Below, piece after piece: positions 7,128-22,402 of a stretch of DNA of 43,017 nt (position 1 is the stretch's first letter; each line of letters starts with the position of its first letter). The notes under the pieces are model-generated. The model saw only the letters and a list, made by a program, of their open reading frames with translations. It searched no databases and had not been told where the DNA came from. The stretch comes from Enterobacteria phage phiJLA23. A program made the translations under genes and the position numbers. The DNA lies in sequence record NC_047740.1. One strand, written 5' to 3'.

Positions 7128-7150
7128 AATATTTCTCCAGTAANTCTGTT

Positions 7151-7165: not shown

Positions 7166-7166
7166 T

Positions 7167-7517: not shown

Positions 7518-7527
7518 TTAAAATCCT

Positions 7528-7546: not shown

Positions 7547-7548
7547 TA

Positions 7549-10602: not shown

Positions 10603-10616
10603 GTAACCTCCATAAA

Positions 10617-10640
10617 AAAACCTCCACAAAGGGAGGTTAT
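10617..10640 (-). terminator. Hairpin + U-run between chaperone GT and tape measure genes
   Basis: Minus strand reads cctccctttgtggagg then ttttttt, immediately before the tape measure RBS. Confidence 0.4.
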
Positions 10641-10996
10641 TTTTGCCTTACTTGCATCATCTCAAGTGCTTTGCACTCCAGTATTCGCAAGTCATTTAAA
10701 GTCATCTCTTTGTCCTTGACATTATACACATCAAAGAGGAAAGGGAGTACTGAATAATCTATTCCGGTAGCGCCGTTCATACCTACACGCCATTGAGTTG
10801 AAGCTGCCTGATAAACAGTCCATGCCAGCATCATGTCATCATCGAAGTGTAACTCCTCTGGCTCCTCATCTTCGTAATCGGAACGCCGCATTCCAATGGC
10901 TTCAAGTTCGGCGTCCGTTGGCTCTCTTTGATACTGTAGATATACTGCGCGCTTTAGACCTTTGCGCGCTGGCCCGCCAGAGCTTGCATGTAAGCA
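10637..10996 (-). CDS. Tail assembly chaperone T portion (-1 frame extension of G; G-T fusion by programmed frameshift)
   Basis: The -1 frame is open from 10996, overlapping the last 14 codons of G, to stop at 10637; conserved G/GT arrangement before the tape measure gene; candidate slip site GCA AAG G. Confidence 0.55.
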   Translation of the reverse strand, partial: CLHASSGGPARKGLKRAVYLQYQREPTDAELEAIGMRRSDYEDEEPEELHFDDDMMLAWTVYQAASTQWRVGMNGATGIDYSVLPFLFDVYNVKDKEMTLNDLRILECKALEMMQVRQK

Positions 10997-11268
10997 TTAG
11001 TCAGTGCCAGAACGGATGCGGGGAACAGAGATACCAGCTCTTCGATGTTCTCGTCGTTAAATTCTTCTTCAAGGTTCCAGCCGCTGCAAATCTCTTTAAC
11101 AAAGTCAAAATCCTTAAGGCCTTCGGTCTGGAATACTTCCTGAATCTCCTTAGCCTTACGGTGCTTGGCATTGAAGATAACCTCAGCTTCCTCGCCGTTG
11201 ATCATCTGGAACTTAACCGGAAGCTTGAAATCAGGGAGCGCGCCTAATTTTAATTTGAATTTCGCCAT
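10954..11268 (-). CDS. Tail assembly chaperone (lambda G-like)
   Basis: 104 aa acidic protein between major tail and tape measure genes; RBS gagagga; downstream -1 frame open. Confidence 0.65.
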   Translation of the reverse strand: MAKFKLKLGALPDFKLPVKFQMINGEEAEVIFNAKHRKAKEIQEVFQTEGLKDFDFVKEICSGWNLEEEFNDENIEELVSLFPASVLALTNAYMQALAGQRAKV

Positions 11269-11301
11269 TTAAATAATCCTCTCGTGTTTGTTTGAGTTGA
11301 A

Positions 11302-11336
11302 ATTATAACATAAAAAAAGCCCCTGTGAAGGGGCTT
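11302..11336 (-). terminator. Terminator after major tail gene (hairpin gcccctgtgaaggggc, T7) followed by TATAAT -10-like box
   Basis: Minus strand: gccccttcacaggggc ttttttt atgt TATAAT, then RBS and G start. Confidence 0.6.
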
Positions 11337-11341
11337 GATTG

Positions 11342-11992
11342 TTATGCAGCCAGGAAGCTATAGCGTCCACGTACCGTAATTGCTACGGATACAGTTTCGA
11401 TCTCGTTAACGGAAACGTTTGGAGTTTCGTTAAACGCGATAGTGCCAGTCCAAAGTCGAACTTCGCCAGCTTTAGGAACGTATGCACGAATCGCAATCAG
11501 CGCGCCAGACTCGTCGTAGTTACGGAGTACCGGGTAGATCGGGTTGGTGAACTCGTGAGCAAACGTATAGGTCGTGTTTACCGCTGACTTATAAGTTGGA
11601 ATCTGCTGCTCACGGTCATCAGCCAGGCACTGATAAGTAACGAACTGCTGCTCTCCGCCATCAGTTGAAACGTCTTGAACACAAGGCATTTCATACCAGG
11701 TAAGAACCTTGTAGATCGATGCCGTTCCGCCAGCTGGGAACTGAAGCGGGTCAGTAGTGTCAATGCCTTCAACGGTAATTGTTGTATCCGTTGATGTAAC
11801 TACTCGCAACTGTTTCTCTGAAAGTTTAGACCATGAAGATGACTCAACAACAATGAAGTCACCAGCTGCGAAAGTTGAAGCGTCAGCTACCGTCATAACT
11901 GGCTGAGCTGCGTTAGTGATAGCCGTTACGGCTACCGATTCAGATTTAGAGCCTTGCAAAAAAATTTGTGTGCCATTGCTGAGATGGGCCAT
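11342..11992 (-). CDS. Major tail protein
   Basis: 216 aa immediately upstream of G/GT; strong RBS aaggag 6 nt before ATG; positional call. Confidence 0.65.
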   Translation of the reverse strand: MAHLSNGTQIFLQGSKSESVAVTAITNAAQPVMTVADASTFAAGDFIVVESSSWSKLSEKQLRVVTSTDTTITVEGIDTTDPLQFPAGGTASIYKVLTWYEMPCVQDVSTDGGEQQFVTYQCLADDREQQIPTYKSAVNTTYTFAHEFTNPIYPVLRNYDESGALIAIRAYVPKAGEVRLWTGTIAFNETPNVSVNEIETVSVAITVRGRYSFLAA

Positions 11993-12006
11993 GTAAATCT
12001 CCTTAA

Positions 12007-12405
12007 TTAATCCATACGTACGTAGAATCGGACAGGAATGAACCAGCCGGATTGCGATTTCACTGGAGGAAATACGGATCCGCCTTCATAAATGTATCCG
12101 CTGTCAAGCATTGTACCATCGGCGAAAGCTTCTGACAATCGCCCAGCCAATTGGCGAGGTCTATCAGTCCCCTCACCTGGTGAAAAGAATATAGAGACCT
12201 GAACCATGCCTACGTAATACCTGCATGTTCGCTGCAATCCCCATGTCACACTATCAACCTCCGTGTAATCAAACTTCAACCATGAACTTCCGTTTTTGGG
12301 TGGCGTGAATCCGCAGTTCTCGTAAGCAACTGGTAGACTGCCAGCAATATCAACTGCCGCATCACTAACCAGTTTCCTTGCTGCAACCATCATTTCATAG
12401 TGCAC
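12007..12405 (-). CDS. Putative tail terminator / completion protein
   Basis: In-frame GTG 12405 with strong SD aggagg 6 nt upstream (ORF track start 12522 overlaps previous gene by 128 nt); sits between connector genes and major tail gene. Confidence 0.4.
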   Translation of the reverse strand: MHYEMMVAARKLVSDAAVDIAGSLPVAYENCGFTPPKNGSSWLKFDYTEVDSVTWGLQRTCRYYVGMVQVSIFFSPGEGTDRPRQLAGRLSEAFADGTMLDSGYIYEGGSVFPPVKSQSGWFIPVRFYVRMD

Positions 12406-12823
12406 GTTTAGCCTCCTGTACCGCCTCAGCAAAGTAACGGCCAAGCCTCTTTTGGACAACTCCAAGAACACCAGAAGGTGCCTGATTGGATGAACCAAAC
12501 TCAAGACCTTGCGCATAATCAAGGCGGTTGGTAATGTAAATTACGTTCGTATTGTTATCACTGGCGAGTGCGTAGATCTGCCTACGAAGAGAGTTTCGAG
12601 TCTCATTTCCGTCAGGGTCGTAATTATTCAGTGACTGCGCAGCTGGTGAGTTGCCAGTAGCCTGCCAGTTACCTCTAAATCGACCAGTATCAACGGGAGA
12701 TAGCTTAACGATGTCGTTGGCAGCCTTGGTTAATGTGCCTTCCACAATCAATTCTACACCCTCCGTGACTCCATCAATCCATGCGTTAATTGAGTTCCTG
12801 AAACTAACAACGTCATTAGCCAT
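12395..12823 (-). CDS. Head-tail joining protein (HK97 gp10-like, tentative)
   Basis: 142 aa with VDTGRFRGNW-type motif reminiscent of the HK97 gp10 family; RBS ggaggg. Confidence 0.45.
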   Translation of the reverse strand: MANDVVSFRNSINAWIDGVTEGVELIVEGTLTKAANDIVKLSPVDTGRFRGNWQATGNSPAAQSLNNYDPDGNETRNSLRRQIYALASDNNTNVIYITNRLDYAQGLEFGSSNQAPSGVLGVVQKRLGRYFAEAVQEAKRAL

Positions 12824-13184
12824 AAGTTGCAGCCCTCCGCAATACTGGCCTGTAGGCGATTACCGTGCCAGTTGGCTTCACTGGTCGAGGGTCAATTACT
12901 GTGTATGCTTCCTGGTCAATGTAGATGCGGTCTCCTTCCGATACAACTGAATCAGCAGTAAAAATTCCGCGACGGTCACCGAATTTGATGATGTCACCAT
13001 CAATGTCTCTCGCTTTGAATTCACGGATAACACCCCGCACAGTGTAGGAAGTGCCTGGTGTGCGCACTTCATAGCCATTAACGATAGAGATGGCTGGCTG
13101 TGTCGTAGCTTCGAAAACTCCATCACCATCTGACAGGAGATTAATACCAGCCTTAATTTGCTGCTGCAAAAGTGCATGATTCAT
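12816..13184 (-). CDS. Putative head-closure / head-tail adaptor protein
   Basis: ATG 13184 overlaps upstream stop (ATGA); position in connector module; no diagnostic motif. Confidence 0.4.
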   Translation of the reverse strand: MNHALLQQQIKAGINLLSDGDGVFEATTQPAISIVNGYEVRTPGTSYTVRGVIREFKARDIDGDIIKFGDRRGIFTADSVVSEGDRIYIDQEAYTVIDPRPVKPTGTVIAYRPVLRRAATYG

Positions 13185-13582
13185 CGGCAGCACCTCGACC
13201 CACCAGAGGTAATCAAGCCCCAGCGGCCAACCTTGCGACGCATCAAATCAATGTAAAGCTTACCCCATGAGGATTCCTCAAGGTTTGATGAGCTAGCTGC
13301 GGCAGTGCTTGTATCGTAGCTAATCGTGTACTCGCCTGAAAGTGAGTAGGACTTAACCCGCTCAGATGATGTCTGGCTTGAATCATTCTCAGTCTTAAGT
13401 GCAATATCCTGGCTAAGCAAGTGAAGAGTGTAGAATGCCAGTGCCTGAACCTGCTTGTCACCAAACTTGTCTAAGCAGATGAATAGCTTGGCTACCTCAA
13501 TCCATGCGTTAAGAACATCATCAGGCTGACTCTTAAGAGGCGGGTAAAGCGTGCGCATGTACGCAATTACTTCTTCATTCAT
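13181..13582 (-). CDS. Putative head-tail connector protein
   Basis: 133 aa; RBS ggaga 6 nt before ATG; position between capsid and tail genes. Confidence 0.4.
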   Translation of the reverse strand: MNEEVIAYMRTLYPPLKSQPDDVLNAWIEVAKLFICLDKFGDKQVQALAFYTLHLLSQDIALKTENDSSQTSSERVKSYSLSGEYTISYDTSTAAASSSNLEESSWGKLYIDLMRRKVGRWGLITSGGSRCCR

Positions 13583-13626
13583 GTGATATCTCCATACAAT
13601 AAAGGACGCCGAAGCGCCCTTTTGGT

Positions 13627-13872
13627 TTATTTGTAGTCGCCGCCATTCTCAGCTTCATCAATAGTCTTTGGTTGCTTCTTGGGCTTAGCCTTGGCTTTAA
13701 CTTCCTGCTCGATTTCTTTAGTTGCCTTGTGGTCATCCTCAACCTCAAGCTTACCTTCAGCTACCAGAATCTTTAATCCAACTGATAACTCTTCAACCTC
13801 GATAGTGTCGCCTGGAAGATAATCTTTTGCGCCAAGACGGATAACACAAGCACCTTTATGTAACAGTTTCAT
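13627..13872 (-). CDS. Hypothetical protein (81 aa, Lys/Glu-rich C-terminus)
   Basis: Strong RBS ggagga; preceded by TATAAT box (13900-13905) and conserved leader CAATCGAAACAAA. Confidence 0.5.
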   Translation of the reverse strand: MKLLHKGACVIRLGAKDYLPGDTIEVEELSVGLKILVAEGKLEVEDDHKATKEIEQEVKAKAKPKKQPKTIDEAENGGDYK

Positions 13873-13883
13873 TTATTCCTCCT

Positions 13884-13968
13884 TTGTTTCGATTGTTTGA
13901 TTATATCTCAATAGCTACCAAAATAGCACCCCGANGGGTGCTTCTTCCTTGTCAAAAAGTGCTATTAA
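13884..13968 (-). promoter_or_regulatory. Terminator (13917-13945) plus TATAAT -10 and conserved leader; degenerate palindrome over capsid stop
   Basis: Hairpin gcaccc-loop-gggtgc then T-run on minus strand after capsid stop; TATAAT; leader as in other composite promoters. Confidence 0.5.
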
Positions 13969-14912
13969 GCAAAAGTAATGCCCTTCATGACAGCCATAGT
14001 TAAAGGCCTAAACACGATCAAACCGGTTGCTTTAGAAGTTACCGGAACACGGAAGTGCAAGTCGCGCGGCTGAGCCGGCAGTGCGTTAGTCGCTTCCGGA
14101 ATCTCGATTGCCATGTTGTTAGGGTCTTTCTCGTAAGCGATAGCTGCAGAGGTACCAGTGCCATTGTAATCATTCAGGTACTGAACGAACTCAACGGTTA
14201 CGCCGCTATTGTTCTGACGGAAGAACTCACCGTAGCTAACAGAAGTGCCAGGCACCAGGTTCTGCATAATACGACGGGCGGTAGTAGGCAGAAGCAGGTG
14301 AGTTGCACGGTGCTGACCATTAGTTGAAGTCTCAATGATATCCAGCAGGCTTGTAATATCGCTTACTGCTGTAGTTGGTTGAGACCATGAACCACCGCTA
14401 ACAACGTTGTTGATGTTCGGGTAGTCGAACACACTCGGGATGCCGTGAGCAGTAGAGCCGGACCACACCAGTTTATCAAGCAGCTTGTCATGAGCTTCGA
14501 AAGCAAGAGACTGCTTGCGAGTAGACAGAGACTGACCGGTAGCCTGACCAACTTTAATTTCATCAATGGAAATCAGGAACGCGTTACCGAAACGGAAAAC
14601 TTTACCCTGACGTTCAGTTGCCAAAGCATCAACCAGCGGCAGGTCATCAGTGTAGTCAGCCACGATCTGAGCAATACCAACGCCATCAAATACCGGATAC
14701 TCAAAGTACTTAGCGTAGCCAGGAATTTCATTGCTTACAGGGAACAGGTTTACCACGGAGTTCTGGTCGTACTCGGTTTCGTAAGCTTTATTCAGGCTTG
14801 CGGTGAGCTGCTTCACGGTCCAGATACCAGCTGCATCAGCCTTATCAACGCCCATGGCTCGCAGGTGGTTAGTGATCTTTTCTTGCTCGAAAGCGTCAAG
14901 TTTGATAGTCAT
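13965..14912 (-). CDS. Major capsid protein
   Basis: About 315 aa after scaffold/decoration genes and before connector genes; consensus TATAAT (14951-14956) just upstream; start at ATG 14912 chosen by RBS aagga (ORF track starts 14951 on non-ATG). Confidence 0.7.
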   Translation of the reverse strand: MTIKLDAFEQEKITNHLRAMGVDKADAAGIWTVKQLTASLNKAYETEYDQNSVVNLFPVSNEIPGYAKYFEYPVFDGVGIAQIVADYTDDLPLVDALATERQGKVFRFGNAFLISIDEIKVGQATGQSLSTRKQSLAFEAHDKLLDKLVWSGSTAHGIPSVFDYPNINNVVSGGSWSQPTTAVSDITSLLDIIETSTNGQHRATHLLLPTTARRIMQNLVPGTSVSYGEFFRQNNSGVTVEFVQYLNDYNGTGTSAAIAYEKDPNNMAIEIPEATNALPAQPRDLHFRVPVTSKATGLIVFRPLTMAVMKGITFA

Positions 14913-14950
14913 ATTAAGATGCATCCTTTTGTTTATGAGTTTACGTGTCA

Positions 14951-15000
14951 ATTATACACGAGATTTTAATTGGAACAATAGAGTAATCATTTCTCTATTG
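14951..15000 (-). promoter_or_regulatory. Late promoter candidate: 8-bp inverted repeat caatagag/ctctattg (14976-15000) upstream of consensus TATAAT (14951-14956)
   Basis: Perfect TATAAT hexamer about 30 nt before capsid start; no recognisable -35, IR occupies that position. Confidence 0.4.
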
Positions 15001-15003
15001 ATT

Positions 15004-15823
15004 TTATGCATCAAGCCTTACAACTTCTATACACAGGTCTTGATTGTCGCTCACAACATAACCGACTGTAAATAGATTTATTGTTACTCTCCACGCCGTT
15101 CCTGTTGTGGTTTCATAAAAGCTAAAAACATATGGCCTTATTCTTTGAAATTCACCAATGCCAGTAACCAATGCTGTTCCAGTTACGGAAGATGAAGATA
15201 TTGCTGTCCTTACTGTTGTATTGAAGTAGTTATCTGTATTATTGAAGCCCTCAATATTACCTCTTATGTTCCTGGCAGTGCTTCCCTCATCAATCCAGGC
15301 TCTAATGCTAAAAGCANTTGGNGAATCAAGCCTTATACCACCGAGNNCNCNCCNNTCNTCGCCTTGAGGACCTNGCGGCCCCGCAGGGCCTGCCGGACCA
15401 GTGTCGACCTTGNGGCCNTGCNGCACCAGCTNCGCCTGCGGGACCTGCTGGACCNTGCGGACCAACCGGACCTTGTGGACCTGCTTCACCTGAACCCCCT
15501 CCTTCATCACTTGCAAAATCACCTTTAGCCAGAGCTGAAATATAAGCGCCATCCTCGAAGTGAGCATTGCCAAACCTTTTCCAGCCCTGCGCTAGATATC
15601 GGTTAACCCTGTTAACTAGCCCCTGAATTGTGGTGTCGGATGTAACCATGAAGTCTTCAACGTTGTTTGTTGTTCCTTTCGCCATCTTCATGCCAAAGAG
15701 GGTGCCGCTTAGCATCTGCACATCACCATATGGCTGAAAGCCTGATGACATCATCACTTTTACGTTCCTGGCTAAGATTTCAGGTGAATTCCCTACTGCC
15801 ATAGCAATTTCTGTGTAAGCCAT
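15004..15823 (-). CDS. Structural protein with collagen-like Gly-X-Y repeats (ORF disrupted by N-run 15300-15500)
   Basis: RBS aggaga 5 nt before ATG 15823; translation contains GEAGPQGPVGPxGPAGPAG; two overlapping ORFs (15326-15823, 15004-15573) rejoin if the N-rich tract is corrected. Confidence 0.5.
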
Positions 15824-15874
15824 TTCTATCTCCTGATTGGTTAATGATCATTGACAGTCTAACAGAAAACAGGC

Positions 15875-15900
15875 AATAAAAAACCTCCCGAAGGAGGTTT
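15875..15900 (-). terminator. Rho-independent terminator (hairpin aacctcccgaaggaggtt + T-run)
   Basis: Minus strand: aacctccttcgggaggtt then tttttatt, after the 155-aa gene. Confidence 0.6.
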
Positions 15901-15916
15901 GATTTGGAGGTGATAA

Positions 15917-16384
15917 TTACTTCTGAATGACCTGGACTTCAACGAGCGCTGGTTCTCCAGATGCGGCATCAGCTGCCTGGAATCCACCTGCGAATGTCCA
16001 GTTAGTACCTAAGGCATCACCGCTTGTTGCTAACCCATTGGCATCAACGGTAACGGCGCTACCAAATGCAGGCGCTTCTGAAAGGCTAGTTGCCATCCAG
16101 ATTCGACCGTGAGTCATTACGTTAGCCACGGAGAAGTTGTCGACATTGCCAACAGCGCCACCGTAAGAACCGCGAGGGCTTTCATAGTGTGACTTAACCA
16201 GGACGCCGTAAACGTTACCAGATGCCGGGGCTACCAGCACCTTGTGACCATCAACAACTGAACCAACTCCAACAGCAGTGCCAACATTGCGCACGAGAGC
16301 CGAAGATGTTACACAGGCACCATCAATATTGTACAGAGAGGTATCTGCAACCATACCAGCAGTAGCTTGACGACGAATTGCCAT
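15917..16384 (-). CDS. Hypothetical structural protein (possible capsid decoration protein)
   Basis: 155 aa Gly/Ala/Val-rich; strong RBS aaggag 7 nt before ATG; between protease/scaffold and capsid genes. Confidence 0.45.
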   Translation of the reverse strand: MAIRRQATAGMVADTSLYNIDGACVTSSALVRNVGTAVGVGSVVDGHKVLVAPASGNVYGVLVKSHYESPRGSYGGAVGNVDNFSVANVMTHGRIWMATSLSEAPAFGSAVTVDANGLATSGDALGTNWTFAGGFQAADAASGEPALVEVQVIQK

Positions 16385-16395
16385 ATTAAGACTCC

Positions 16396-17505
16396 TTATT
16401 TTTTCAATTTAGCGAGGCGAGCGCGCGGGTCTAATTTCTTAGGCGCGTCGGCTGCGTCAGATTTATCCGCAGCAGCAACTGCTTTGCGGGCTTCGGCCAT
16501 TTTATCACTATCTTTAGCGATATCAAAGGCTGCATCGATGTATGCGTCAGATTTCTCAGCAACTTCAATACCAGACACTTCTTTAACGTAAGCAACTTTG
16601 ATTGCTTTAGCATCCAGGCCATCACATTTAACGCCAGCTTCTGCGGCAACTGCGACCAGGGCAGCCATTTCGTCAGCATCAGTCTTAGCTTTGGCTAAAG
16701 CAGCTTCTATTTCAGCGGGGATGCCATCAACTTTAGCTTTCAGTGCGTCGCGCTCAGCTTCCAGAGTGTCAGCTTTAGCTTTAGCCTGCTCCGCATCAGC
16801 CTTAACAGCTTCGATATGCTTAGCAACTTCCGGGGCGATTTCGAACTCCTGTTCGCCATCGAGTTTAATCTTAATCATCAATTTATCCTCTTTATTTGAT
16901 TGAACGGTATCAGTATACGGGTTTTCCTGTTCCGCGTCCAGATTGAGTTTAGCAATACCTGCGCGACCTTTATATACGAGTGCGATATGATTAACAACGA
17001 TATTCGTCTGTAGCGCATCAAAGCGTACCCAATCAGCAGGAATCTCATCCTGGCTTGCGTACTCTCCATCAAGCTTGTACTCACCCGTTTCATTACTACC
17101 CCAGCCAGGAGACTCAATGTCAACAGTGTTGTAGCCAACAGAGAGCTCACCAGCAACGCCAGACTTGGCCTTCTCAATTGCTTCCTTGTCGTAAACGGTA
17201 AGAGGAACAATCACTGCCGAGTCCTGACGCATTGCTGACCCAGATACAGAACCAACAACCACCTCTTTAGCATTTTCAGAGTTTACAACCACGTGACCAA
17301 GAGTAAGCGGCTTACCCTGGTAACTTTGCAGCGAATCGGCTTTAAAAACCTCTGAAGCCGGACGGAACTCTCGGCGCTCTGAACCATCTGGCATATAGTA
17401 GGTTTGTACACCTACGCGAGCAACCACTGGGGTGTCCACGAGAAAACCGTTCTCATCGAAACGGGCTTTTACCTTGGCGCTATCATAACGCATTTTACTC
17501 TTCAT
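16396..17505 (-). CDS. Prohead protease / scaffolding protein
   Basis: Globular N-terminal domain then long Ala/Lys/Glu-rich coiled-coil-like C-terminus; between head morphogenesis and capsid genes. Confidence 0.55.
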   Translation of the reverse strand: MKSKMRYDSAKVKARFDENGFLVDTPVVARVGVQTYYMPDGSERREFRPASEVFKADSLQSYQGKPLTLGHVVVNSENAKEVVVGSVSGSAMRQDSAVIVPLTVYDKEAIEKAKSGVAGELSVGYNTVDIESPGWGSNETGEYKLDGEYASQDEIPADWVRFDALQTNIVVNHIALVYKGRAGIAKLNLDAEQENPYTDTVQSNKEDKLMIKIKLDGEQEFEIAPEVAKHIEAVKADAEQAKAKADTLEAERDALKAKVDGIPAEIEAALAKAKTDADEMAALVAVAAEAGVKCDGLDAKAIKVAYVKEVSGIEVAEKSDAYIDAAFDIAKDSDKMAEARKAVAAADKSDAADAPKKLDPRARLAKLKK

Positions 17506-18259
17506 TAATTAAATTCTCCCATTTAGGAACAGCCCAGCAACGACACCCGTATTGCTGACCGGGGAATATCGCAAGGCCGTCAAGTTTTCCAGCGTCCGAA
17601 CCATCTGATTTAAAGCTAACCCCCTCACGCAAAACGTGAGATGGTCGCTCTTTGTCGTCAAGTCTACCACGCCAAACATACTGAGATACACCGGCATCTT
17701 CAAGCCTTCTCCGCATAAGGTTTGAGTTTAGAGACCCTGTAATTCCAGCAGCGATATTTGCTGTTCTCTTTCTGTAGATTCGGTATCTATCATCAAGGTC
17801 AACAGTGTTACCAGCCTGCGCAGTAATGGCGTTGTTTATGAAATCATCCTTGATGTTGTTTAGCAGCTTTGATGCACTTAACTGCGTGCCAACAATCCAT
17901 GAGTTCCTGGTGTCGAGCCACCATGGTTCATCCGCGTTAATACCATACAATCCTAGCGCAAGAACTACAGGATTATCCTTACCTCCGGAGTTGTTGGCCA
18001 CCTTAAGGAATTGCGCCGAGTTATAACGATATATTGCTAGTGCCAGCGCAGGCAGAGTGGAAACAAAACCAGATAGCAGCGCTGAGATTACATCTGAAAG
18101 GTCTGAATCTTCCTCTTCAATCTCCTGCGCTGTGTCAATTTTTAGCCTCTTTGCAGATAACTTCATTTGCTCAATAAGTTCAGATACCGCAACCAAAAGG
18201 CTGCGATTAATCTGGCTCTCAATTATTTGCGGATACATCCAGCGGGTCTTCTGATTCAT
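17495..18259 (-). CDS. Head morphogenesis protein (Mu gpF / SPP1 gp7-like)
   Basis: C-terminal motif GQQYGCRCWAVP typical of this family; directly after portal gene. Confidence 0.65.
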   Translation of the reverse strand: MNQKTRWMYPQIIESQINRSLLVAVSELIEQMKLSAKRLKIDTAQEIEEEDSDLSDVISALLSGFVSTLPALALAIYRYNSAQFLKVANNSGGKDNPVVLALGLYGINADEPWWLDTRNSWIVGTQLSASKLLNNIKDDFINNAITAQAGNTVDLDDRYRIYRKRTANIAAGITGSLNSNLMRRRLEDAGVSQYVWRGRLDDKERPSHVLREGVSFKSDGSDAGKLDGLAIFPGQQYGCRCWAVPKWENLINEE

Positions 18260-19493
18260 TAATTACAACCTCCGTTTGAATTGAGCCTTCGCCAATCTTA
18301 ACCTCAGTTGAAATTGCGCGCAACGTATCTCTTGCTTCGTCTGCGTCAATGATTCCAGCTGCAATCAATGCGGCAACTGAATTGACGTTCTTCTCAAGAA
18401 TCTCAGATTTATCCTTGTCGCTAATCTGCGATAGAGGGTTAAATTCTACTGACCATTCCTGCTCACTTACAATGAATGAAATCAGGAACTCAAGAAGGGG
18501 CAGTAATTCAGCCTTGCGCTTGCGGTCAACGTAACCATAGAAAGTTTCCAGAGCCGTATTTTGGCTGGCTGATACACCGCCAGTATTCTTGGCTTTGAGA
18601 ATAATTTCATGGATGCCGCTCAGGGCAACGATTCGATCGAACTTCTGACTCAGAAATGTATCAATACCGCCAATATCTGAGTTGAGAACGTTGTACTCTT
18701 CACTCTCCGCGTCAATCCCGATAGCCTGACCAACGCCACTGTTATTATCTACCTGAGCCAGACGTAAACGAGCCGCGCCAAATCCATCCGAATCATCGCA
18801 CAAGTCAGCAAGGCCTTTAGCTTTCCATACAGCCTGCTGCTTACGACGCAGTAACTGAGTAGCCAGTCTCTCGCAGTTCTGATAGTCGTCAATCGCGTCG
18901 ATTAAGTCACTAGTTAGCACGCTTGCGCCCCAACCATCGTTATTACGACGTAAATTGTTAGGCACTCGCTCGCCATCAATGATATGGCAACGTGTGTAGT
19001 GTACATCATAGAACGTAGCTGAACCATTTGGCGTGATGCGGTAAGTTAATGGCTTACCAAATCGAGCGTTTCGTGGATTCTCCTCGCGAGTCTGCACTTT
19101 TACTTGCTGCCGGTCGTATACGCGAACGGTTTCGAGCTCCGCACCTTCACGAGCTGGGCTAGTTAGCGCCCTACCATCCTTAACTATTGCTACTACAGCT
19201 GCGCCACCGTATAACCTTGCCCACGCCAGGGCGTCAATTACGCTATCTGAAAGGTCTAAATCATCCCATCGAGACCAGAAAGCACCTTCATCGCTGATGC
19301 CTTCGATGTTAAAGCCAGCACCAAGTGCAACCTCCGGCACGATATCAATGATTCGGCGAACCAGTGCGCTGTTGACGTAAAGCTGCTCAAGCTGCGCTGG
19401 AGCTGTTAGGCCAAGGCCGCCAAGCTTTCCGTAAATCTCGCTACCATCACTCCCGTTGAGAAAGATGTTTGCGTAGCTGTCTGCTTTTACCAT
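18219..19493 (-). CDS. Portal protein
   Basis: 424 aa immediately after large terminase; RBS ggaga 6 nt before ATG 19493. Confidence 0.8.
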   Translation of the reverse strand: MVKADSYANIFLNGSDGSEIYGKLGGLGLTAPAQLEQLYVNSALVRRIIDIVPEVALGAGFNIEGISDEGAFWSRWDDLDLSDSVIDALAWARLYGGAAVVAIVKDGRALTSPAREGAELETVRVYDRQQVKVQTREENPRNARFGKPLTYRITPNGSATFYDVHYTRCHIIDGERVPNNLRRNNDGWGASVLTSDLIDAIDDYQNCERLATQLLRRKQQAVWKAKGLADLCDDSDGFGAARLRLAQVDNNSGVGQAIGIDAESEEYNVLNSDIGGIDTFLSQKFDRIVALSGIHEIILKAKNTGGVSASQNTALETFYGYVDRKRKAELLPLLEFLISFIVSEQEWSVEFNPLSQISDKDKSEILEKNVNSVAALIAAGIIDADEARDTLRAISTEVKIGEGSIQTEVVINESEDPLDVSANN

Positions 19494-19494
19494 G

Positions 19495-19700
19495 TAATTT
19501 CTCCAATAAAAACGCCCCTGGTAAGGGGCAGTTTATCATGATTACTTAACTCCAGCTAGCCTCATTAACCTAGNTCTTGGGTCGNNCNNNNNNNNNANNC
19601 CGTCTGNNTNNNCTTTNNANNTTTTNTANTCNATAAAAAAGCCCCTGAGTAAGGGGCAGTTTATCATGATTACTTAACTCCAGCTAGCCTCATTAACCTA
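19495..19700. repeat. Tandem duplicated segment (~19507-19575 and ~19631-19700) around an N-run: probable assembly artifact containing the terminase terminator
   Basis: Two near-identical copies of the large terminase 3' end plus terminator hairpin, separated by Ns 19575-19635. Confidence 0.7.
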
Positions 19701-21238
19701 GCTCTTGGGTCGTCACTCAAGTTCAATTCACAGTTTATTGCCATCGTTGTTGTATCTACAATGTCATCATGGGGGTGTGAATCGTCCGCAGTGAACGCCG
19801 AGAACTCAGTTAGCAGAGATGTAAGCCATGGCGCTGAGTCTGGCAGAACTACGTTACCAGCCTTAATCTGTGGTAATGCGCTCATCACCCTGGTTAACTT
19901 ATCTGTATCGGGAACGAAAGGCTCAATAGGAGTCCGCATCGTTCGACCTGCTGACTGGATAAGCCCTATGCCAGATGCTTTCTTCTCGATAATAACCTTA
20001 CGTAAGATACCATCTGTTTTACTAGCTGCTCGGTGCTTACTCTCAAAGTTCAGAAGAGTTTGCTCAAGCTCTGGAGCCTCCCATTTACCCCTAACCATAT
20101 CCAGAAGATAAATCTTGTTATCCTTTCTACCCCAAAGCTGGAACACAGAATAATCGCTGTAACTCTTCGTAGTCATGGCAGTATCAGCTGTAATGAAGCG
20201 GTAGTCATACTTGACTGGCGGCCTGTTGTTCTCGTCAAGCCTCACGAACCAATCTACGTTAATCAGGTTTCCACCTAAGGCTACTGGAGATTGTTGGTAC
20301 TGGCTTAGGAACGTGTACGGATCTGAGTCCCACATTGCCATCAAGTCATGCGCAGATTCCTTCTGCGGGAAGTAGCTGTAATACTTAACACCATCTCGCT
20401 CGACGTACTCGGATGAAAGCACGTCCTTCTCGAACTGCTCACGAATCCAGTCAGGAAGTTCATTCACATATTCTTCAGTGACCAGCGCCGGTATCTTCAA
20501 TACATCAAAGTCGATACCCATACCACCAGAAGTCATGAACCACGTCGAATCCTGCGTATGAAGCCTTTGCTGGATGGACAAAATCGGCGTAGCTTTACCT
20601 TTAACGCTACTCGCCCTACGTGAGCGAATGGTATTTTTAAGTAAAACGTGGACAGCTTCTCGCCTTACCTTGCTGAGCATATCGTCTGGCTTGTCTGGGT
20701 CATCAAGCATCAAGCAACCGCTATAGGTTTCAGTAATATAACCGCCACGAGCGCCGGTAATCTGACCGCCAATTGCCTTAGATATCGCTTCGAACCTAAC
20801 CTTTCCACTCTCGTCAAGAACCTGAATCTCGTCATCCTTGCACGTGCCGAACTTACAGGGCCATAGTTCCTGAAACTCAGCTGACTTTATAAGGTCGCGA
20901 ACACGCTTAGAGTTGCGCTTCACCAGACTGTCAGAGAATGAGAGGCTCAGATTTCGCACCTTCTTTAGCTTAAGCATTGAGTATACAGGGAAGTGTATTG
21001 AAGTAATCTCGGTCTTCCCGGCCCCGGGAGCCACGTTAATGATGGTATCCCTACGCTCGCCACTAATAACCTCGTCAATTATTCGGCAAAGGTACTTGTG
21101 ATGCCAGTTAGGGATGTATCGCTCTCCCTGGCTTAGCTGAAACCACACGCGAAGGAATGCCTCGAAGCTGTGAGTGGACAGCACTTTAACTGCCAGCTTT
21201 TCGGCTGGCGTCATTTCTTCCCAAACCAATGTCTTCAT
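19670..21238 (-). CDS. Terminase large subunit
   Basis: 522 aa; Walker A NVAPGAGKT near N-terminus; start overlaps small terminase stop (ATGA). Confidence 0.9.
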   Translation of the reverse strand: MKTLVWEEMTPAEKLAVKVLSTHSFEAFLRVWFQLSQGERYIPNWHHKYLCRIIDEVISGERRDTIINVAPGAGKTEITSIHFPVYSMLKLKKVRNLSLSFSDSLVKRNSKRVRDLIKSAEFQELWPCKFGTCKDDEIQVLDESGKVRFEAISKAIGGQITGARGGYITETYSGCLMLDDPDKPDDMLSKVRREAVHVLLKNTIRSRRASSVKGKATPILSIQQRLHTQDSTWFMTSGGMGIDFDVLKIPALVTEEYVNELPDWIREQFEKDVLSSEYVERDGVKYYSYFPQKESAHDLMAMWDSDPYTFLSQYQQSPVALGGNLINVDWFVRLDENNRPPVKYDYRFITADTAMTTKSYSDYSVFQLWGRKDNKIYLLDMVRGKWEAPELEQTLLNFESKHRAASKTDGILRKVIIEKKASGIGLIQSAGRTMRTPIEPFVPDTDKLTRVMSALPQIKAGNVVLPDSAPWLTSLLTEFSAFTADDSHPHDDIVDTTTMAINCELNLSDDPRARLMRLAGVK

Positions 21239-21750
21239 AGTTTATCCATTACAGAAGCCAGAGCAGACTTCATTGCTTCCTCGTCGTTTACTACAGCATT
21301 AGAAGCGTTGTTGATGTTAACCTCTTGCGGCTTATCGATGCCAAGGTCTTTGCTAATAAGTCCAGGGTTGACGATGTTGTTAACACCCAACTGGTACTTC
21401 TGTTCAAAGATAACTGAGTCGACGAACTCCATAACTTCATCGAATCCTGGTGATGAGCGCCATTTGCTAATAGCATTATGACCAACGCCGCAGAAAAGCT
21501 GGAATCCAGTTATCGTAAATACCCTCGGCTTGTGAACAAGGTTTTCCGTTACGACACCCTGAAAGCTTGCTGTCTCGATAGCTTTAATTGCCTGCTCTTC
21601 AGCCCAGCTGAAATACCTTACAGCCATGTCGAATACCTGCTCGGGAGTGTATCTGTGGTTAATCTTAAGATTGGCAATGTCGCCATACTTCTTATTGTAA
21701 AGCTCCTTGAAGTTACCAATCTTCTGGTGAATTTTTTTCTCTTCTGACAT
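21235..21750 (-). CDS. Terminase small subunit (putative)
   Basis: 171 aa immediately upstream of and coupled to large terminase; strong RBS aggagg. Confidence 0.6.
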   Translation of the reverse strand: MSEEKKIHQKIGNFKELYNKKYGDIANLKINHRYTPEQVFDMAVRYFSWAEEQAIKAIETASFQGVVTENLVHKPRVFTITGFQLFCGVGHNAISKWRSSPGFDEVMEFVDSVIFEQKYQLGVNNIVNPGLISKDLGIDKPQEVNINNASNAVVNDEEAMKSALASVMDKL

Positions 21751-21776: not shown

Positions 21777-21821
21777 ATTGTACCATGACTATGGACGAAA
21801 AAAAGCCCTCACAAGGAGGGC
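21777..21821 (-). promoter_or_regulatory. Terminator hairpin (21805-21821, T7) followed by TACAAT -10-like box (21777-21782) upstream of small terminase
   Basis: gccctccttgtgagggc ttttttt, about 15 nt, TACAAT, about 12 nt, aggagg, ATG. Confidence 0.5.
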
Positions 21822-21849: not shown

Positions 21850-22035
21850 TCAAACGAGGGATACTTTATCAACGCTGACTTTGTGGACTGTCAGGTCAAT
21901 CTTAAATGCTGCCTTTGCGGCTGCAACTGCTTCTTCAGGGCTTTTAGCAATGAACCTACCTTCGTAGGATTGCTGGCAAGATTTGCATTGCCGACCCATT
22001 AGGCGGGAAGTTAAACGGACTTCGTAGTTATTCAC
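21850..22035 (-). CDS. Hypothetical protein (61 aa, CxxC)
   Basis: ORF between tRNA and terminase terminator; weak RBS. Confidence 0.4.
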   Translation of the reverse strand: MNNYEVRLTSRLMGRQCKSCQQSYEGRFIAKSPEEAVAAAKAAFKIDLTVHKVSVDKVSLV

Positions 22036-22051: not shown

Positions 22052-22127
22052 TGGTGTTCCGCACTGGACTCGAACCAGTAACTGAGACTTAGGAGGTCTC
22101 TGCGTTATCCTGTTACGCCAGCAGAAC
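22052..22127 (-). tRNA. tRNA-Arg (anticodon CCU), CCA encoded
   Basis: Manual cloverleaf: acceptor GTTCTGC/GCGGAAC (one G-U), U8, D-stem GCGT/ACGC with A14 G18 G19, anticodon stem GAGAC/GTCTC, loop CTCCTAA, T-arm ACTGG-TTCGAGT-CCAGT, discriminator A, CCA. Confidence 0.7.
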
Positions 22128-22402
22128 TAGAATGAGTCCCGCTTACCGAATGCGGGGAGGTTTCACAATCCTCGGAATGTCAAGCCCGACTTACTGCATT
22201 TATTGGTTCGCTTCAAGGAGTANNTGCGGTTTTATTTGCCTCGTATCTTTATCCAGCCCGGCTATCGGCTTGCATCTCCGCGATGCGCGTTACGGTCATT
22301 GCCGTCTACGTGGTTAATACTAACCACTTTTAACATTTTCGTCAAGCCATGACGACGAAATAAATCCACGTCAACATGCCAGCCAGGAACCAGATTGATA
22401 GC

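What the first reader, a model, noticed from the sequence alone, without database searches (positions are those of the whole stretch)
22052..22127. Phage-encoded tRNA-Arg(CCU) between the packaging genes and the early region
A 76-nt sequence on the minus strand folds into a canonical cloverleaf with conserved U8, A14, G18-G19, U33, T-loop TTCGAGT and encoded CCA. Anticodon CCU reads AGG, a rare arginine codon in enterobacteria, so the tRNA may support translation of phage genes. It lies next to an N-containing low-quality stretch (22223-22224).
Basis: seen in the sequence. Interest (0 to 1): 0.55.

Follow-up and report, generated by a model that had tools for sequence, protein, structure and literature searches.

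The report
Known phage tRNA-Arg reading AGG
The window really does encode an intact arginine tRNA that reads the codon AGG, which is rare in E. coli but is this phage's commonest arginine codon; the same tRNA has been described in closely related T1-like coliphages since 2012, so the finding is correct but ordinary.

Summary
ARAGORN calls tRNA-Arg(CCU) at exactly 22052-22127 (-), and Rfam's tRNA model scores it 57.6 bits against a threshold of 29. The cloverleaf, U8, A14, G18-G19, U33, the TTCGAGT loop, the encoded CCA and the NN at 22223-22224 are all present.

The window is a Rogunavirus (T1-like, Drexlerviridae), 99.4% identical to phage C119 around the tRNA. The identical tRNA is annotated in several relatives. 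It was published for Rogue1 and JK06 as "recognizing the rare codon AGG" (Kropinski 2012). It is therefore already known.

The proposed role is supported by new comparative evidence.
- AGG is the phage's most frequent Arg codon: 13.0 per 1000 codons and 25.5% of Arg, against 2.2 per 1000 in an E. coli sample.
- Sister phages whose tRNA in the same slot has anticodon UCU are enriched in AGA instead.
- T1 and TLS, which lack a tRNA, are depleted in both codons.
- One CCU phage, BUCT-XGG-1, does not fit this pattern.

Covariation in the cloverleaf shows the gene is under selection.

By-products of the work:
- The CCU and UCU tRNAs share a 3' half but not a 5' half.
- The tRNA sits directly after a conserved, covarying two-hairpin leader. 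That leader also exists in tRNA-less T1, matches no Rfam family and remains unexplained.

The parts
22052..22127 (-). tRNA-Arg, anticodon CCU (reads AGG), 76 nt, with encoded CCA
   Evidence: ARAGORN. Rfam RF00005 at 57.6 bits, E = 5.4e-10. Cloverleaf as the minimum-free-energy fold. Covariation in 13 of 21 pairs. 100% identical to the tRNA-Arg annotated in phages AKS96, BECP10 and UDF157lw.
22317..22345 (-). Sigma-70-type promoter: -35 TTGACG (22345-22340), 17-nt spacer, -10 TAGTAT (22322-22317), about 190 nt upstream of the tRNA
   Evidence: Consensus scan. The number of promoter-like sites in the region is not above chance, so this scan alone is weak. The hexamers and spacing are conserved in Rogue1, C119, Sd1, phiEB49 and Opt-719, and also in the divergent BUCT-XGG-1, whose spacer sequence differs. 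T1 has TTGACC-17-TAGTAT and TLS has TTGACG-17-TAGATT. Function is inferred and not tested.
22128..22177 (-). Conserved leader module abutting the tRNA 5' end. Hairpin 1 at 22173-22157 (GAGG/AUUGUGAAA/CCUC), hairpin 2 at 22156-22138 (CCCGC/AUUCGGUAA/GCGGG), single-stranded tail ACUCAUUCUA at 22137-22128.
   Evidence: Alignments. Covariance model R1 finds it in every Drexlerviridae locus held, including tRNA-less T1 at E = 3e-5 and weakly TLS at E = 0.03. On the structural alignment 100% of cells pair and 8 of 9 pairs change on both sides, with 0 of 500 shuffles reaching this. No Rfam match. Function unknown.
22178..22316 (-). Remainder of the predicted 5' leader. The promoter-proximal part is conserved. 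The variable part contains the NN (22223-22224) and an 11-nt gap relative to C119.
   Evidence: Alignment A2; sequence.
21850..22035 (-). Small ORF (61 aa, GTG start) with Shine-Dalgarno GGAG at 22046-22043, 6 nt after the tRNA 3' end. Homologue of Rogue1 gp14, Rtp17 and T1 gp56.
   Evidence: ORF list, sequence, Rogue1 annotation note. No Pfam domain.
21795..21821 (-). Intrinsic-terminator-like hairpin GCCCUCCUUGUGAGGGC followed by a U run. It closes the short promoter-leader-tRNA-ORF unit just before the small terminase gene.
   Evidence: Scan. T1 has an annotated rho-independent terminator at the equivalent place, 8322-8344, before its small terminase gene.
1593..21750 (-). Late packaging and morphogenesis gene array immediately downstream on the same strand. 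These are the main users of AGG.
   Evidence: 99 of 140 AGG codons fall here: 16.4 per 1000 against 8.7 per 1000 elsewhere. Tape measure has 30, the J-like tail tip 24 and the large terminase 11. The major capsid has 1 and the major tail protein 0. The small terminase carries Pfam GP3_package.

Best explanation
This is a functional phage-encoded elongator tRNA-Arg(CCU).

Inferred mechanism:
1. Host RNA polymerase transcribes it from a conserved sigma-70 promoter about 190 nt upstream. The unit is short: leader, tRNA, a 61-aa ORF, then a terminator. It sits at the head of the late gene array.
2. Host RNase P and 3'-end enzymes mature it. The CCA is encoded, as in E. coli tRNA genes.
3. Host ArgRS charges it. 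The E. coli arginine identity elements A20, C35 and U36 are present and invariant in the family.
4. It decodes AGG. The host reads AGG mainly with the scarce argW tRNA.

AGG is this phage's commonest arginine codon and is concentrated in large late proteins (tape measure, tail tip, terminase). The extra tRNA therefore either relieves a translational bottleneck, or has allowed the genome to drift toward AGG, or both.

Shown here: the gene is intact, it is under purifying and compensatory selection, it is phage-specific, and its anticodon matches the phage's codon usage. Inferred only: transcription, processing, charging and the fitness benefit.
For: Gene integrity:
- ARAGORN and Rfam both call it, and the fold is a cloverleaf.
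- 13 of 21 pairs show compensatory changes and 98.4% of cells pair.
- A20, C35, U36, U8, A14, G18, G19 and the TTC of the T loop are invariant across 12 sequences.
- The tRNA is 100% identical in five other phages whose flanks are 95-99% identical.

Codon match:
- In ORFs of at least 100 aa the window has AGG at 12.97 per 1000 codons, 25.5% of Arg. T1 has 5.2 per 1000 and the E. coli sample 2.2 per 1000.
- Mononucleotide composition predicts about 20% AGG in all these phages. Observed over expected AGG is 1.26 (window) and 1.39 (Sd1) for CCU phages, 0.83-0.89 for UCU phages, and 0.51 (T1) and 0.38 (TLS) for tRNA-less phages.
- Observed over expected AGA is 0.64-0.65 in CCU phages, 1.00-1.02 in UCU phages and 0.58-0.68 in tRNA-less phages.
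- This is what decoding rules predict: CCU reads AGG only, while UCU reads AGA and also AGG.
- In 11 orthologous genes the AGG/AGA/Arg counts are 79/23/282 (window), 42/60/288 (Rtp), 22/28/259 (T1) and 18/29/261 (TLS). In the J-like gene the window has 24 AGG and 2 AGA, and Rtp has 5 and 20.

Placement:
- The tRNA lies on the same strand as the AGG-rich late block and directly upstream of it.

Expression signals:
- The promoter is conserved.

Literature:
- The same reading was published for Rogue1 (AGG) and SU57 (AGA).
Against: - No expression, charging or phenotype data exist here.
- BUCT-XGG-1 carries a CCU homologue, yet AGG is only 0.59 of expectation. Presence of the tRNA therefore does not always go with AGG enrichment. 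Its tRNA has a U5-U68 mismatch and the lowest model score, 49.1 bits.
- The comparison rests on a few clades that are not phylogenetically independent.
- The most abundant virion proteins (major capsid, major tail, scaffold) avoid AGG and AGA in all four phages. Real AGG demand may therefore be modest, and the pattern fits relaxed selection as well as adaptive supply.
- The host sample is one 50-kb block rich in ribosomal-protein genes.
- The direction of causality cannot be told.
Confidence: 0.78

Rival explanations
1. Counter-defence tRNA. The phage tRNA replaces or outnumbers host tRNA-Arg that a host tRNA-targeting defence destroys during infection (anticodon nucleases of the PrrC/RloC kind, PARIS, retron effectors, colicin-D-like tRNA-Arg nucleases). 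Translation can then continue.
For: Phage tRNAs are experimentally shown to neutralise such systems: T5 tRNA-Tyr against retron Eco7, and phage tRNA-Lys rescuing T1 and T7 from PrrC170. Relatives T1, TLS and Rtp carry a polynucleotide kinase and an Stp-like gene, so tRNA damage is a theme in this family. The body of the tRNA differs strongly from argW, at 70% identity. The same slot holds a tRNA-Trp in Sd1; Trp has a single codon, so codon rarity cannot explain that one. Promoter-driven expression is plausible.
Against: The anticodon loop is identical to that of host argW, CUCCUAA. This is unlike the loop-mutated evasive tRNAs the eLife 2023 title cited refers to. No defence specific to tRNA-Arg(CCU) turned up in the papers read. 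This model does not predict the genome-wide mirror between anticodon (CCU versus UCU) and AGG versus AGA usage. No Pnk or Stp homologue is detectable in the window; the best tblastn E-value is 0.18.
Confidence: 0.1
2. Compensation for loss of host tRNA supply after host shut-off. Once the host chromosome and its transcription are destroyed, the scarcest tRNA runs out first and the phage carries its own copy. No special codon adaptation is involved.
For: From general knowledge, T1-like phages are virulent and shut down the host, and tRNA-Arg(CCU) is among the least abundant E. coli tRNAs. The tRNA is under a promoter recognised by the host polymerase.
Against: T1 and TLS have the same lifestyle and manage without any tRNA. 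The anticodon tracks the phage's own codon usage, which points to a codon-specific relationship rather than general depletion. In practice this rival overlaps the main explanation.
Confidence: 0.07
3. Neutral passenger or decaying relic. The slot after the leader module is an insertion hot spot, and the tRNA is cargo without function in this phage.
For: The slot holds different extra tRNA-like inserts in different phages: Trp in Sd1, a doubtful Val in phiEB49 that falls below the Rfam threshold, and a 99-nt tRNA-like sequence in Opt-719. T1 and TLS have the slot empty. BUCT-XGG-1 shows no AGG enrichment.
Against: There are compensatory substitutions in all four stems. Tertiary and identity nucleotides are invariant across homologues that are 75-100% identical. 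The sequence is 100% conserved among phages whose flanks have diverged. The score is well above threshold.
Confidence: 0.04
4. Attachment-site remnant: a piece of host tRNA gene picked up by integration and excision.
For: Host argW and argU are prophage integration sites: the annotated CPS-53 feature starts within argW and DLP12 within argU. The 5' half of the UCU-type phage tRNA is 91% identical to argU.
Against: The gene is full length. It is only 60-70% identical to argU and argW and has no BLAST match in E. coli genomes. The phage belongs to a virulent family and the tRNA sits among small ORFs next to the terminase genes, with no integrase nearby.
Confidence: 0.01

Closest known systems
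tRNA-Arg of Escherichia phage vB_EcoS_Rogue1 (F856_gt01, record positions 3387-3462) and of JK06, AKS96, AHP24, AHS24, AHP42, BECP10 and UDF157lw (genus Rogunavirus)
   Same: Same gene in the same place. It is 98.7% identical to the Rogue1 copy and 100% identical to the AKS96, BECP10 and UDF157lw copies. It has the same anticodon CCU and the same flanks: small ORF and small terminase gene downstream, leader module upstream. It was published as 'an arginyl-tRNA ... recognizing the rare codon AGG' and as '1 arginyl-tRNA'.
   Different: Essentially nothing differs. The gene is simply not annotated in the closest records (C119, phiKP26, JK06, e4/1c). It is also not mentioned in the phiJLA23 genome announcement, whose length equals that of the window.
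tRNA-Arg(UCU) of Braunvirinae T1-like phages (Rtp, SU57, MSK, and the BASEL phages JeanPiccard, JulesPiccard and AugustePiccard)
   Same: It occupies the same genomic slot after the same kind of leader module. The 3' half is 88% identical. The proposed role, reading a rare AGR codon, is the same.
   Different: The anticodon is UCU, not CCU. The 5' half is only 66-73% identical to the window's, and in Rtp it is 91% identical to host argU. Genome codon usage is shifted toward AGA rather than AGG.
E. coli argW, the host tRNA-Arg(CCU)
   Same: Same anticodon and an identical anticodon loop CUCCUAA, with A20, C35, U36 and A73.
   Different: Only 70% identical overall, with different acceptor, anticodon and T stems. 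There is no BLAST-level similarity to any E. coli genome.
Anti-defence phage tRNAs (T5 tRNA-Tyr against retron Eco7; phage tRNA-Lys against PrrC170 and PARIS)
   Same: A phage-borne tRNA expressed from a host-type promoter. T1 itself was shown to be rescued from a tRNA nuclease by a supplied phage tRNA.
   Different: No cognate defence is known for tRNA-Arg(CCU). The anticodon loop is not altered relative to the host's. The codon-usage mirror is not expected under that model.
HK022 put antiterminator RNA (an analogue for the leader module only, not for the tRNA)
   Same: Two adjacent stem-loops in the nascent transcript, downstream of a sigma-70 promoter and upstream of terminators that precede long operons.
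   Different: put is about 70 nt with long bulged stems and a triplex. The module here is about 40 nt with 4-5-bp stems. No sequence relationship was shown and no function was tested.

Membership tests
Canonical bacterial-type elongator tRNA (Rfam RF00005) | Covariance-model score at or above the curated threshold, matched over the full length | tested here: met
   57.6 bits against 29, model positions 1-71 of 71, E = 5.4e-10. ARAGORN agrees.
Canonical bacterial-type elongator tRNA (Rfam RF00005) | Cloverleaf with 7/4/5/5-bp stems, a 7-nt anticodon loop and a 7-nt T loop, plus conserved U8, A14, G18-G19, U33, T54-Psi55-C56 (TTC) and A58 | tested here: met
   Minimum-free-energy structure and sequence. 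These positions are invariant in the 12-sequence alignment.
Canonical bacterial-type elongator tRNA (Rfam RF00005) | Base pairs maintained by compensatory substitutions among homologues | tested here: met
   13 of 21 pairs change on both sides and 98.4% of cells pair. No shuffle out of 500 reaches this, and shifted registers give 28-48% paired.
Canonical bacterial-type elongator tRNA (Rfam RF00005) | A mature, processed, aminoacylated molecule exists in infected cells | not testable with these tools
   Needs a northern blot, tRNA-seq or an acid-gel charging assay.
Arginine-accepting tRNA in E. coli (ArgRS identity set) | A20 in the D loop, C35 and U36 or G36 in the anticodon (identity rules recalled from the literature, not re-derived here) | tested here: met
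   A20, C35 and U36 are present and invariant in all phage homologues and in argW.
Phage tRNA that compensates a codon-usage mismatch with the host | The cognate codon is rare in the host and frequent in the phage | tested here: met
   AGG is 12.97 per 1000 in the window and 2.23 per 1000 in an E. coli 50-kb sample. It is the top Arg codon at 25.5%. Composition expectation is 20%.
Phage tRNA that compensates a codon-usage mismatch with the host | Across related phages, presence of the tRNA and its anticodon track usage of the cognate codon | tested here: inconclusive
   This holds for the window and Sd1 (CCU), Rtp and JeanPiccard (UCU), and T1 and TLS (none), genome-wide and in 11 orthologues. 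It fails for BUCT-XGG-1, a CCU phage with AGG at 0.59 of expectation. The seven genomes come from few independent clades.
Phage tRNA that compensates a codon-usage mismatch with the host | The cognate codon is enriched in late or structural genes | tested here: inconclusive
   The late block has 16.4 AGG per 1000 against 8.7 elsewhere. However, the most abundant proteins (major capsid 1, major tail 0, scaffold 0) avoid AGG; the enrichment lies in low-copy large proteins.
Phage tRNA that compensates a codon-usage mismatch with the host | Loss of the tRNA reduces translation of cognate-codon-rich genes or reduces burst size | not testable with these tools
   Needs phage genetics.
Anti-defence (nuclease-evading) phage tRNA | The anticodon loop or stem differs from the host isoacceptor at nuclease-recognition positions | tested here: not met
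   The loop CUCCUAA is identical to argW's. The anticodon stem does differ, GAGAC/GUCUC against AGCCC/GGGCU, so evasion based on the stem is not excluded.
Anti-defence (nuclease-evading) phage tRNA | A host defence system that cleaves the corresponding host tRNA | not tested
   None specific to tRNA-Arg(CCU) turned up in the papers read. Colicin D is known from memory to cleave tRNA-Arg isoacceptors, but it is not a phage defence.
HK022 put-type antiterminator RNA (leader module only) | About 70 nt, with two long stem-loops bearing bulges and a triplex, binding the RNA polymerase beta-prime zinc-binding domain | tested here: not met
   The module is about 40 nt with 4-5-bp stems, against the put description. 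Binding is not testable here. No Rfam family matches.

The most novel reading that the evidence does not exclude
The tRNA occupies a landing pad for tRNA genes immediately 3' of a small structured leader RNA that has not been described. The leader consists of two covarying hairpins; the second has a conserved loop, ANNC(C/G)GUAA, and is followed by an A/U-rich tail. It is conserved across Drexlerviridae whether or not a tRNA is present. Similar elements (GCCGG-A(N)CCGUAA-CCGGC) appear in intergenic leaders of unrelated phage contigs.

On this reading the module is a new cis-acting phage regulatory RNA heading the late operon. It could be an antitermination element, a protein-binding site or a processing element. 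The Arg tRNA behind it would then have been exchanged in halves between phage and host lineages, with the whole genome's AGG/AGA usage re-tuned to whichever anticodon is carried.
Probability: 0.3. Interest if true: 0.5.

Novelty: already known. Interest (0 to 1): 0.2.

Why it matters
The tRNA itself adds nothing new. It is a published feature of Rogue1-like coliphages, and its presumed role, decoding a rare arginine codon, is the textbook explanation for phage tRNAs.

The modest value lies in three things.
- The T1-like family offers an unusually clean natural comparison: the same slot holds a CCU tRNA, a UCU tRNA or nothing. Arginine codon usage mirrors the anticodon even within single orthologous genes. 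This makes the codon-supply hypothesis and the defence-evasion hypothesis directly testable in an easy genetic system.
- Several database records (C119, phiKP26, JK06, e4/1c, Rtp, DTL) lack the tRNA annotation, and one paper states wrongly that Rtp lacks the gene.
- The conserved two-hairpin leader next to the tRNA is a candidate regulatory RNA at the start of the late genes of T1-like phages, whose transcriptional control is poorly known.

Tried and rejected
- IMG/VR scan: I used a wrong spacer (13 N instead of 11). It returned only two unrelated tRNA clusters (L004, L005). I redid it correctly.
- Thermodynamic stability alone: z = -1.78 for the tRNA and -0.97 for the whole leader plus tRNA. 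This is not informative, so I relied on covariance models and covariation.
- Rfam at permissive E-values over 21760-22460: only the tRNA matched. The other hits are the terminator hairpin matching unrelated sRNA models, and I rejected them.
- Pfam on ten neighbouring ORFs: only the small terminase (GP3_package) and one DUF7180 matched. Nothing is tRNA-related.
- tblastn of T1 and TLS Pnk and Stp against the window: no credible hit. A tRNA-repair module next to the tRNA is not supported.
- MAFFT alignment of CCU-type and UCU-type leader modules: stems were not in register. I replaced it with a covariance-model alignment.
- A possible pseudoknot between the 5' flank (CCGA or CGGA) and the loop of hairpin 2 (UCGG or UCCG): it covaries between the two Rogunavirinae variants. 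It is not consistently possible in ETEP102 or in several other contigs, so I left it as unproven.
- Loose pattern scan for hairpin 2 in IMG/VR: the number of hits is about what chance predicts for 15 specified bases. Only 14 of 79 loci pass the model, and several of those score on hairpin 2 alone. The wider distribution is therefore suggestive only.
- preQ1-I riboswitch and small self-cleaving ribozymes as identities for the module: considered because of the hairpin plus A-rich tail before a Shine-Dalgarno sequence. I rejected them for lack of any Rfam match.
- Integration-site remnant: rejected.
- Fetching KC333879 (phiJLA23) to confirm the window's identity: the record is not in the collection.
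- Literature search for T1-like late-gene antitermination: nothing relevant.
Full report
**1. The observation**

ARAGORN reports a single tRNA in the window: tRNA-Arg with anticodon cct at 22052-22127 on the minus strand. These are exactly the coordinates given. Rfam's tRNA model matches 22055-22127 (-) over its full length at 57.6 bits, against a gathering score of 29, with E = 5.4e-10.

The 76-nt RNA is GUUCUGCUGGCGUAACAGGAUAACGCAGAGACCUCCUAAGUCUCAGUUACUGGUUCGAGUCCAGUGCGGAACACCA. Its minimum-free-energy fold is the cloverleaf. U8, A14, G18-G19, U33, the UUCGAGU T loop and the encoded CCA are all present, and the NN is at 22223-22224. Thermodynamic stability alone is not impressive (z = -1.78). 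The case rests on the covariance model and on covariation.

**2. What the window is**

The region 21000-23500 is 99.4% identical to Escherichia phage C119, 99.2% to phiKP26 and 97.3% to Rogue1 and JK06. All are members of Rogunavirus (Drexlerviridae, T1-like siphoviruses). The window length, 43,017 bp, equals the published genome length of phiJLA23. That record is not in the searchable collection, so this identity is an inference.

On the minus strand the order is:
- small ORFs of unknown function
- promoter
- leader
- tRNA
- a 61-aa ORF
- terminator
- small terminase, large terminase, portal, head and tail genes

**3. The tRNA is already known**

The tRNA is annotated in Rogue1 (F856_gt01), Sd1 ("CCT; predicted by tRNAscan-SE"), AKS96, AHP24, AHS24, AHP42, BECP10, UDF157lw and others. 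Kropinski et al. [quoted passage not shown] Niu et al. 2014 list "1 arginyl-tRNA" for four further phages (PMC4070988).

The gene is present but unannotated in C119, phiKP26, JK06, e4/1c and Rtp. The MSK paper states that Rtp and DTL lack it. ARAGORN nevertheless finds it in Rtp at 4893-4969 and in L032, the IMG/VR contig that has DTL's length.

**4. It is a real gene under selection**

A BLAST search of 50,697 phage records finds 113 records with a homologue, with identity down to about 78%. I aligned eleven phage copies with host argW. In that alignment 98.4% of cells form standard pairs and 13 of 21 pairs show changes on both sides. No shuffle out of 500 reaches these values, and sliding the register drops pairing to 28-48%.

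A20, C35 and U36 are invariant. From the literature these are the E. coli ArgRS identity elements.

The tRNA is phage-specific:
- It has no BLAST hit in 5,426 complete E. coli genomes. At this database size that excludes only close copies.
- It is 70% identical to argW and 60% to argU.
- Its anticodon-arm plus T-arm combination is absent from 185,579 representative bacterial genomes.

**5.

I used ATG-initiated, non-overlapping ORFs of at least 100 aa.

| Genome | tRNA anticodon | AGG per 1000 | AGA per 1000 | AGG observed/expected | AGA observed/expected |
|---|---|---|---|---|---|
| Window | CCU | 12.97 | 7.36 | 1.26 | 0.64 |
| Sd1 | CCU | 13.33 | 7.07 | 1.39 | 0.65 |
| BUCT-XGG-1 | CCU | 5.88 | 6.07 | 0.59 | 0.56 |
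| Rtp | UCU | 8.99 | 11.78 | 0.89 | 1.00 |
| JeanPiccard | UCU | 8.32 | 11.53 | 0.83 | 1.02 |
| T1 | none | 5.21 | 7.93 | 0.51 | 0.68 |
| TLS | none | 4.08 | 7.77 | 0.38 | 0.58 |
| E. coli 50-kb sample | host | 2.23 | 2.93 | 0.21 | 0.30 |

 In the window AGG is the commonest of the six Arg codons, at 25.5% of Arg. Mononucleotide composition predicts about 20% AGG and 22-27% AGA in all these phages. T1 and TLS have no tRNA at all.

The pattern is what decoding rules predict. A CCU tRNA lifts the constraint on AGG only. A UCU tRNA lifts it on AGA and partly on AGG.

The effect is visible inside single orthologous genes:

| Genes | Window AGG/AGA/Arg | Rtp | T1 | TLS |
|---|---|---|---|---|
| 11 orthologues summed | 79/23/282 | 42/60/288 | 22/28/259 | 18/29/261 |
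| J-like tail tip | 24/2/54 | 5/20/57 | 7/9/61 | 10/11/61 |

Within the window, AGG is 16.4 per 1000 in the late block downstream of the tRNA and 8.7 per 1000 elsewhere.

There are three caveats.
- BUCT-XGG-1 carries a CCU copy but has AGG at only 0.59 of expectation. Its tRNA has a U5-U68 mismatch, an extra D-arm base and the lowest tRNA score, 49.1 bits, which is still far above threshold.
- The genomes represent few independent clades.
- The most abundant virion proteins avoid AGG and AGA in every phage. The AGG load sits in low-copy large proteins, which fits relaxed selection as well as adaptive supply.

**6. Expression context**

A promoter-like site, TTGACG-17-TAGTAT, lies at 22345-22317 (-). 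Taken alone it is no better than chance in the scan. However, its hexamers and spacing are conserved in all relatives examined. These include BUCT-XGG-1, where the spacer sequence differs, as well as T1 and TLS.

A terminator-like hairpin with a U run at 21821-21805 (-) follows the 61-aa ORF. It matches the terminator annotated before the small terminase gene in T1. T1-like phages are reported to lack their own RNA polymerase, so host polymerase presumably makes the tRNA. All of this is inference.

**7. Origin**

The CCU tRNA of Rogunavirinae and the UCU tRNA of Braunvirinae occupy the same slot. Their 3' halves (variable loop, T arm, 3' acceptor strand) are 88% identical. Their 5' halves are only 66-73% identical. 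The Rtp 5' half is 91% identical to host argU.

The anticodon difference therefore looks like replacement of a half-gene, for example by recombination with an argU-like sequence, rather than a single U34/C34 mutation. With sequences this short the conclusion is tentative.

tRNA-Arg genes that match the pattern I searched (same anticodon arm and T arm) also sit in the tRNA clusters of jumbo phages, among them GAP32 and a 344-kb contig with adjacent CCU and UCU copies. The shared 3' half occurs once in the bacterial collection. That hit is in a nine-tRNA cluster on a 21-kb contig binned as an Odoribacter MAG, and it looks phage-like.

**8. Rival explanations**

- Defence evasion is a live possibility in principle. 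Azam et al. 2024 show that T1 is blocked by PrrC170 and rescued by a supplied phage tRNA-Lys. T1, TLS and Rtp carry Pnk and Stp-like genes. Sd1 has a tRNA-Trp in the slot, which codon rarity cannot explain. Against it, the anticodon loop equals argW's, no tRNA-Arg(CCU)-specific defence turned up, the window has no Pnk or Stp, and the model does not predict the codon mirror.
- A relic or passenger is contradicted by the covariation.
- An att-site remnant is contradicted by the lack of host identity.

**9. The leader module (a by-product)**

Immediately 5' of the tRNA lie two adjacent hairpins and a single-stranded tail (window 22177-22128, minus strand).

Between the two Rogunavirinae variants every substitution is a C/G transversion, and each one is compensated. 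A covariance model built from five sequences finds the element in all UCU-type phages. It also finds it in tRNA-less T1, where it ends 12 nt before the ST57 start codon with the Shine-Dalgarno sequence in between, and weakly in TLS. On the structural alignment 100% of cells pair and 8 of 9 pairs change on both sides, with 0 of 500 shuffles reaching this. That alignment was fitted to the model's structure, so it leans toward it.

The module is therefore independent of the tRNA, and the tRNA is inserted right after it. Other phages have additional inserts at the same place: Trp in Sd1, a doubtful Val in phiEB49, a tRNA-like 99-mer in Opt-719, and a duplicated module in JulesPiccard. No Rfam family matches.

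A loose pattern scan of IMG/VR recovered the core GCCGG-A(N)CCGUAA-CCGGC in other phage contigs. In twelve model-passing cases the element is intergenic, preceded by a variable hairpin, and followed by an A/U-rich tail and a start codon. In two GC-rich contigs an intrinsic terminator and an endolysin gene follow it. The raw hit count is about what chance predicts, so this wider distribution is only suggestive.

The architecture recalls HK022 put RNA, with two stem-loops between a promoter and terminators. However, put is about 70 nt and structurally more elaborate. Function remains unknown. Candidates are an antitermination element, a protein-binding element or an RNA processing or stability element.

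**10. Verdict**

The feature is already known, so interest is low. The added value is a clean comparative demonstration that the anticodon and arginine codon usage co-vary in T1-like phages, plus a flagged conserved leader RNA that remains unexplained.

Noticed in passing
window 22128-22177 (-); also L015 (T1) 7688-7742, L021 (TLS) 7878-7936, L017 (Rtp) 4845-4891: A conserved two-hairpin leader module with a conserved second loop, ANNC(C/G)GUAA, and an A/U-rich tail. It covaries strongly (100% paired, 8 of 9 pairs changed on both sides). It is present in all Drexlerviridae examined, including tRNA-less T1, and matches no Rfam family. Function unknown.
   Followed up: partly
IMG/VR loci L073, L090, L063, L095, L066, L069, L071, L076, L045, L103, L107 (coordinates): A similar element (variable hairpin, then GCCGG-A(N)CCGUAA-CCGGC, then an A/U-rich tail) lies in intergenic leaders of unrelated phage contigs, just before a start codon. 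In L103 and L107 it is followed by an intrinsic terminator and an endolysin gene. The hits were pre-selected by pattern and the total hit count is near chance expectation, so this needs an unbiased search.
   Followed up: partly
L003 (Sd1) 2399-2472; L007 (phiEB49) 678-754; L009 (Opt-719) 682-783; L011 (JulesPiccard) 491-528 and 552-597: The slot after the leader module behaves as an insertion hot spot. Sd1 has an extra tRNA-Trp(CCA). phiEB49 has a 'tRNA-Val(AAC)' that ARAGORN calls but Rfam does not. Opt-719 has a 99-nt tRNA-like sequence scoring 42.7 bits. JulesPiccard has two copies of the module.
   Followed up: partly
L017 (Rtp, NC_007603.1) 4893-4969; L002 (C119) 2553-2628; phiKP26, JK06 and e4/1c: The tRNA is present but not annotated in several public records. 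A 2021 paper states that Rtp and DTL lack the tRNA-Arg gene, but ARAGORN finds it in Rtp and in L032, the contig with DTL's length.
   Followed up: yes
tRNA halves: window 22052-22127 against L013 584-660 and E. coli argU (L039 424-500): The tRNAs are mosaic. The CCU and UCU phage tRNAs share an 88%-identical 3' half. The UCU type's 5' half is 91% identical to host argU and only 66% identical to the window's 5' half.
   Followed up: partly
L019/L008 (BUCT-XGG-1, PP069513.1): This phage carries a CCU homologue but shows no AGG enrichment (0.59 of expectation). Its tRNA has a U5-U68 mismatch, an extra D-arm base and the lowest tRNA score of the family, 49.1 bits. It could be a recent acquisition or a decaying copy.
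   Followed up: partly
window 22342-22410 (-): A 22-codon ORF encodes a hydrophobic peptide, MTELSIWFLAGMLTWIYFVVMA. It is conserved in Rogunavirinae relatives. Its stop codon lies inside the -35 hexamer of the tRNA promoter, and its start overlaps the stop of the preceding ORF (ATGACTGA).
   Followed up: no
window 22200-22240 (NN at 22223-22224): Around the NN the window lacks 11 nt and has several mismatches relative to C119 within an otherwise 99% identical stretch. This looks like a low-quality patch of 454 sequencing in the variable part of the leader. It does not affect the tRNA.
   Followed up: partly
window 13965-14924, 11342-11992 and 16396-17505 (-), with orthologues in T1, Rtp and TLS: The major capsid, major tail and scaffold/protease genes contain almost no AGG or AGA in any of the four phages, whether or not a tRNA is present. 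Selection against AGR codons persists in the most highly expressed genes.
   Followed up: yes
window genes 600-1562 (+), 5060-5635 (-), 12007-12516 (-), 36503-39220 (+): There are four in-frame AGG-AGG tandem pairs and five other AGR-AGR pairs. From the literature, tandem AGG is prone to stalling or frameshifting in E. coli when tRNA-Arg(CCU) is limiting. Some of these may also act as internal Shine-Dalgarno-like sequences.
   Followed up: no
L015 (T1) 4948-5478; L021 (TLS) 1865-1945 and 3132-3695; L017 (Rtp) 1444-1983 and 2432-2524: T1, TLS and Rtp encode a polynucleotide kinase, and TLS and Rtp also encode a T4 Stp-like peptide (an activator of the PrrC anticodon nuclease). No homologue is detectable in the window (best tblastn E = 0.18). 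Any part of the genome outside the window was not examined.
   Followed up: partly
window 21777-21785 (-): Just after the terminator and 27 nt before the small terminase start codon there is an extended -10-like sequence, TGGTACAAT. It is a possible separate promoter for the late genes. It was not picked up by the scan because it has no -35.
   Followed up: no
whole window: The window length, 43,017 bp, equals the published genome size of Escherichia phage phiJLA23 (KC333879), a 454-sequenced relative of JK06 from the same laboratory as C119 and phiKP26. The genome announcement reports no tRNA search.
   Followed up: partly
L159 2940-3016 (-), contig CAKVCR010000010.1: A 21-kb contig binned as an Odoribacter MAG carries nine scattered tRNA genes, including a tRNA-Arg(CCU) with the same T arm and acceptor stem as the phage tRNA. 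It is probably a mis-binned phage contig. It has no megablast match to known phages.
   Followed up: no
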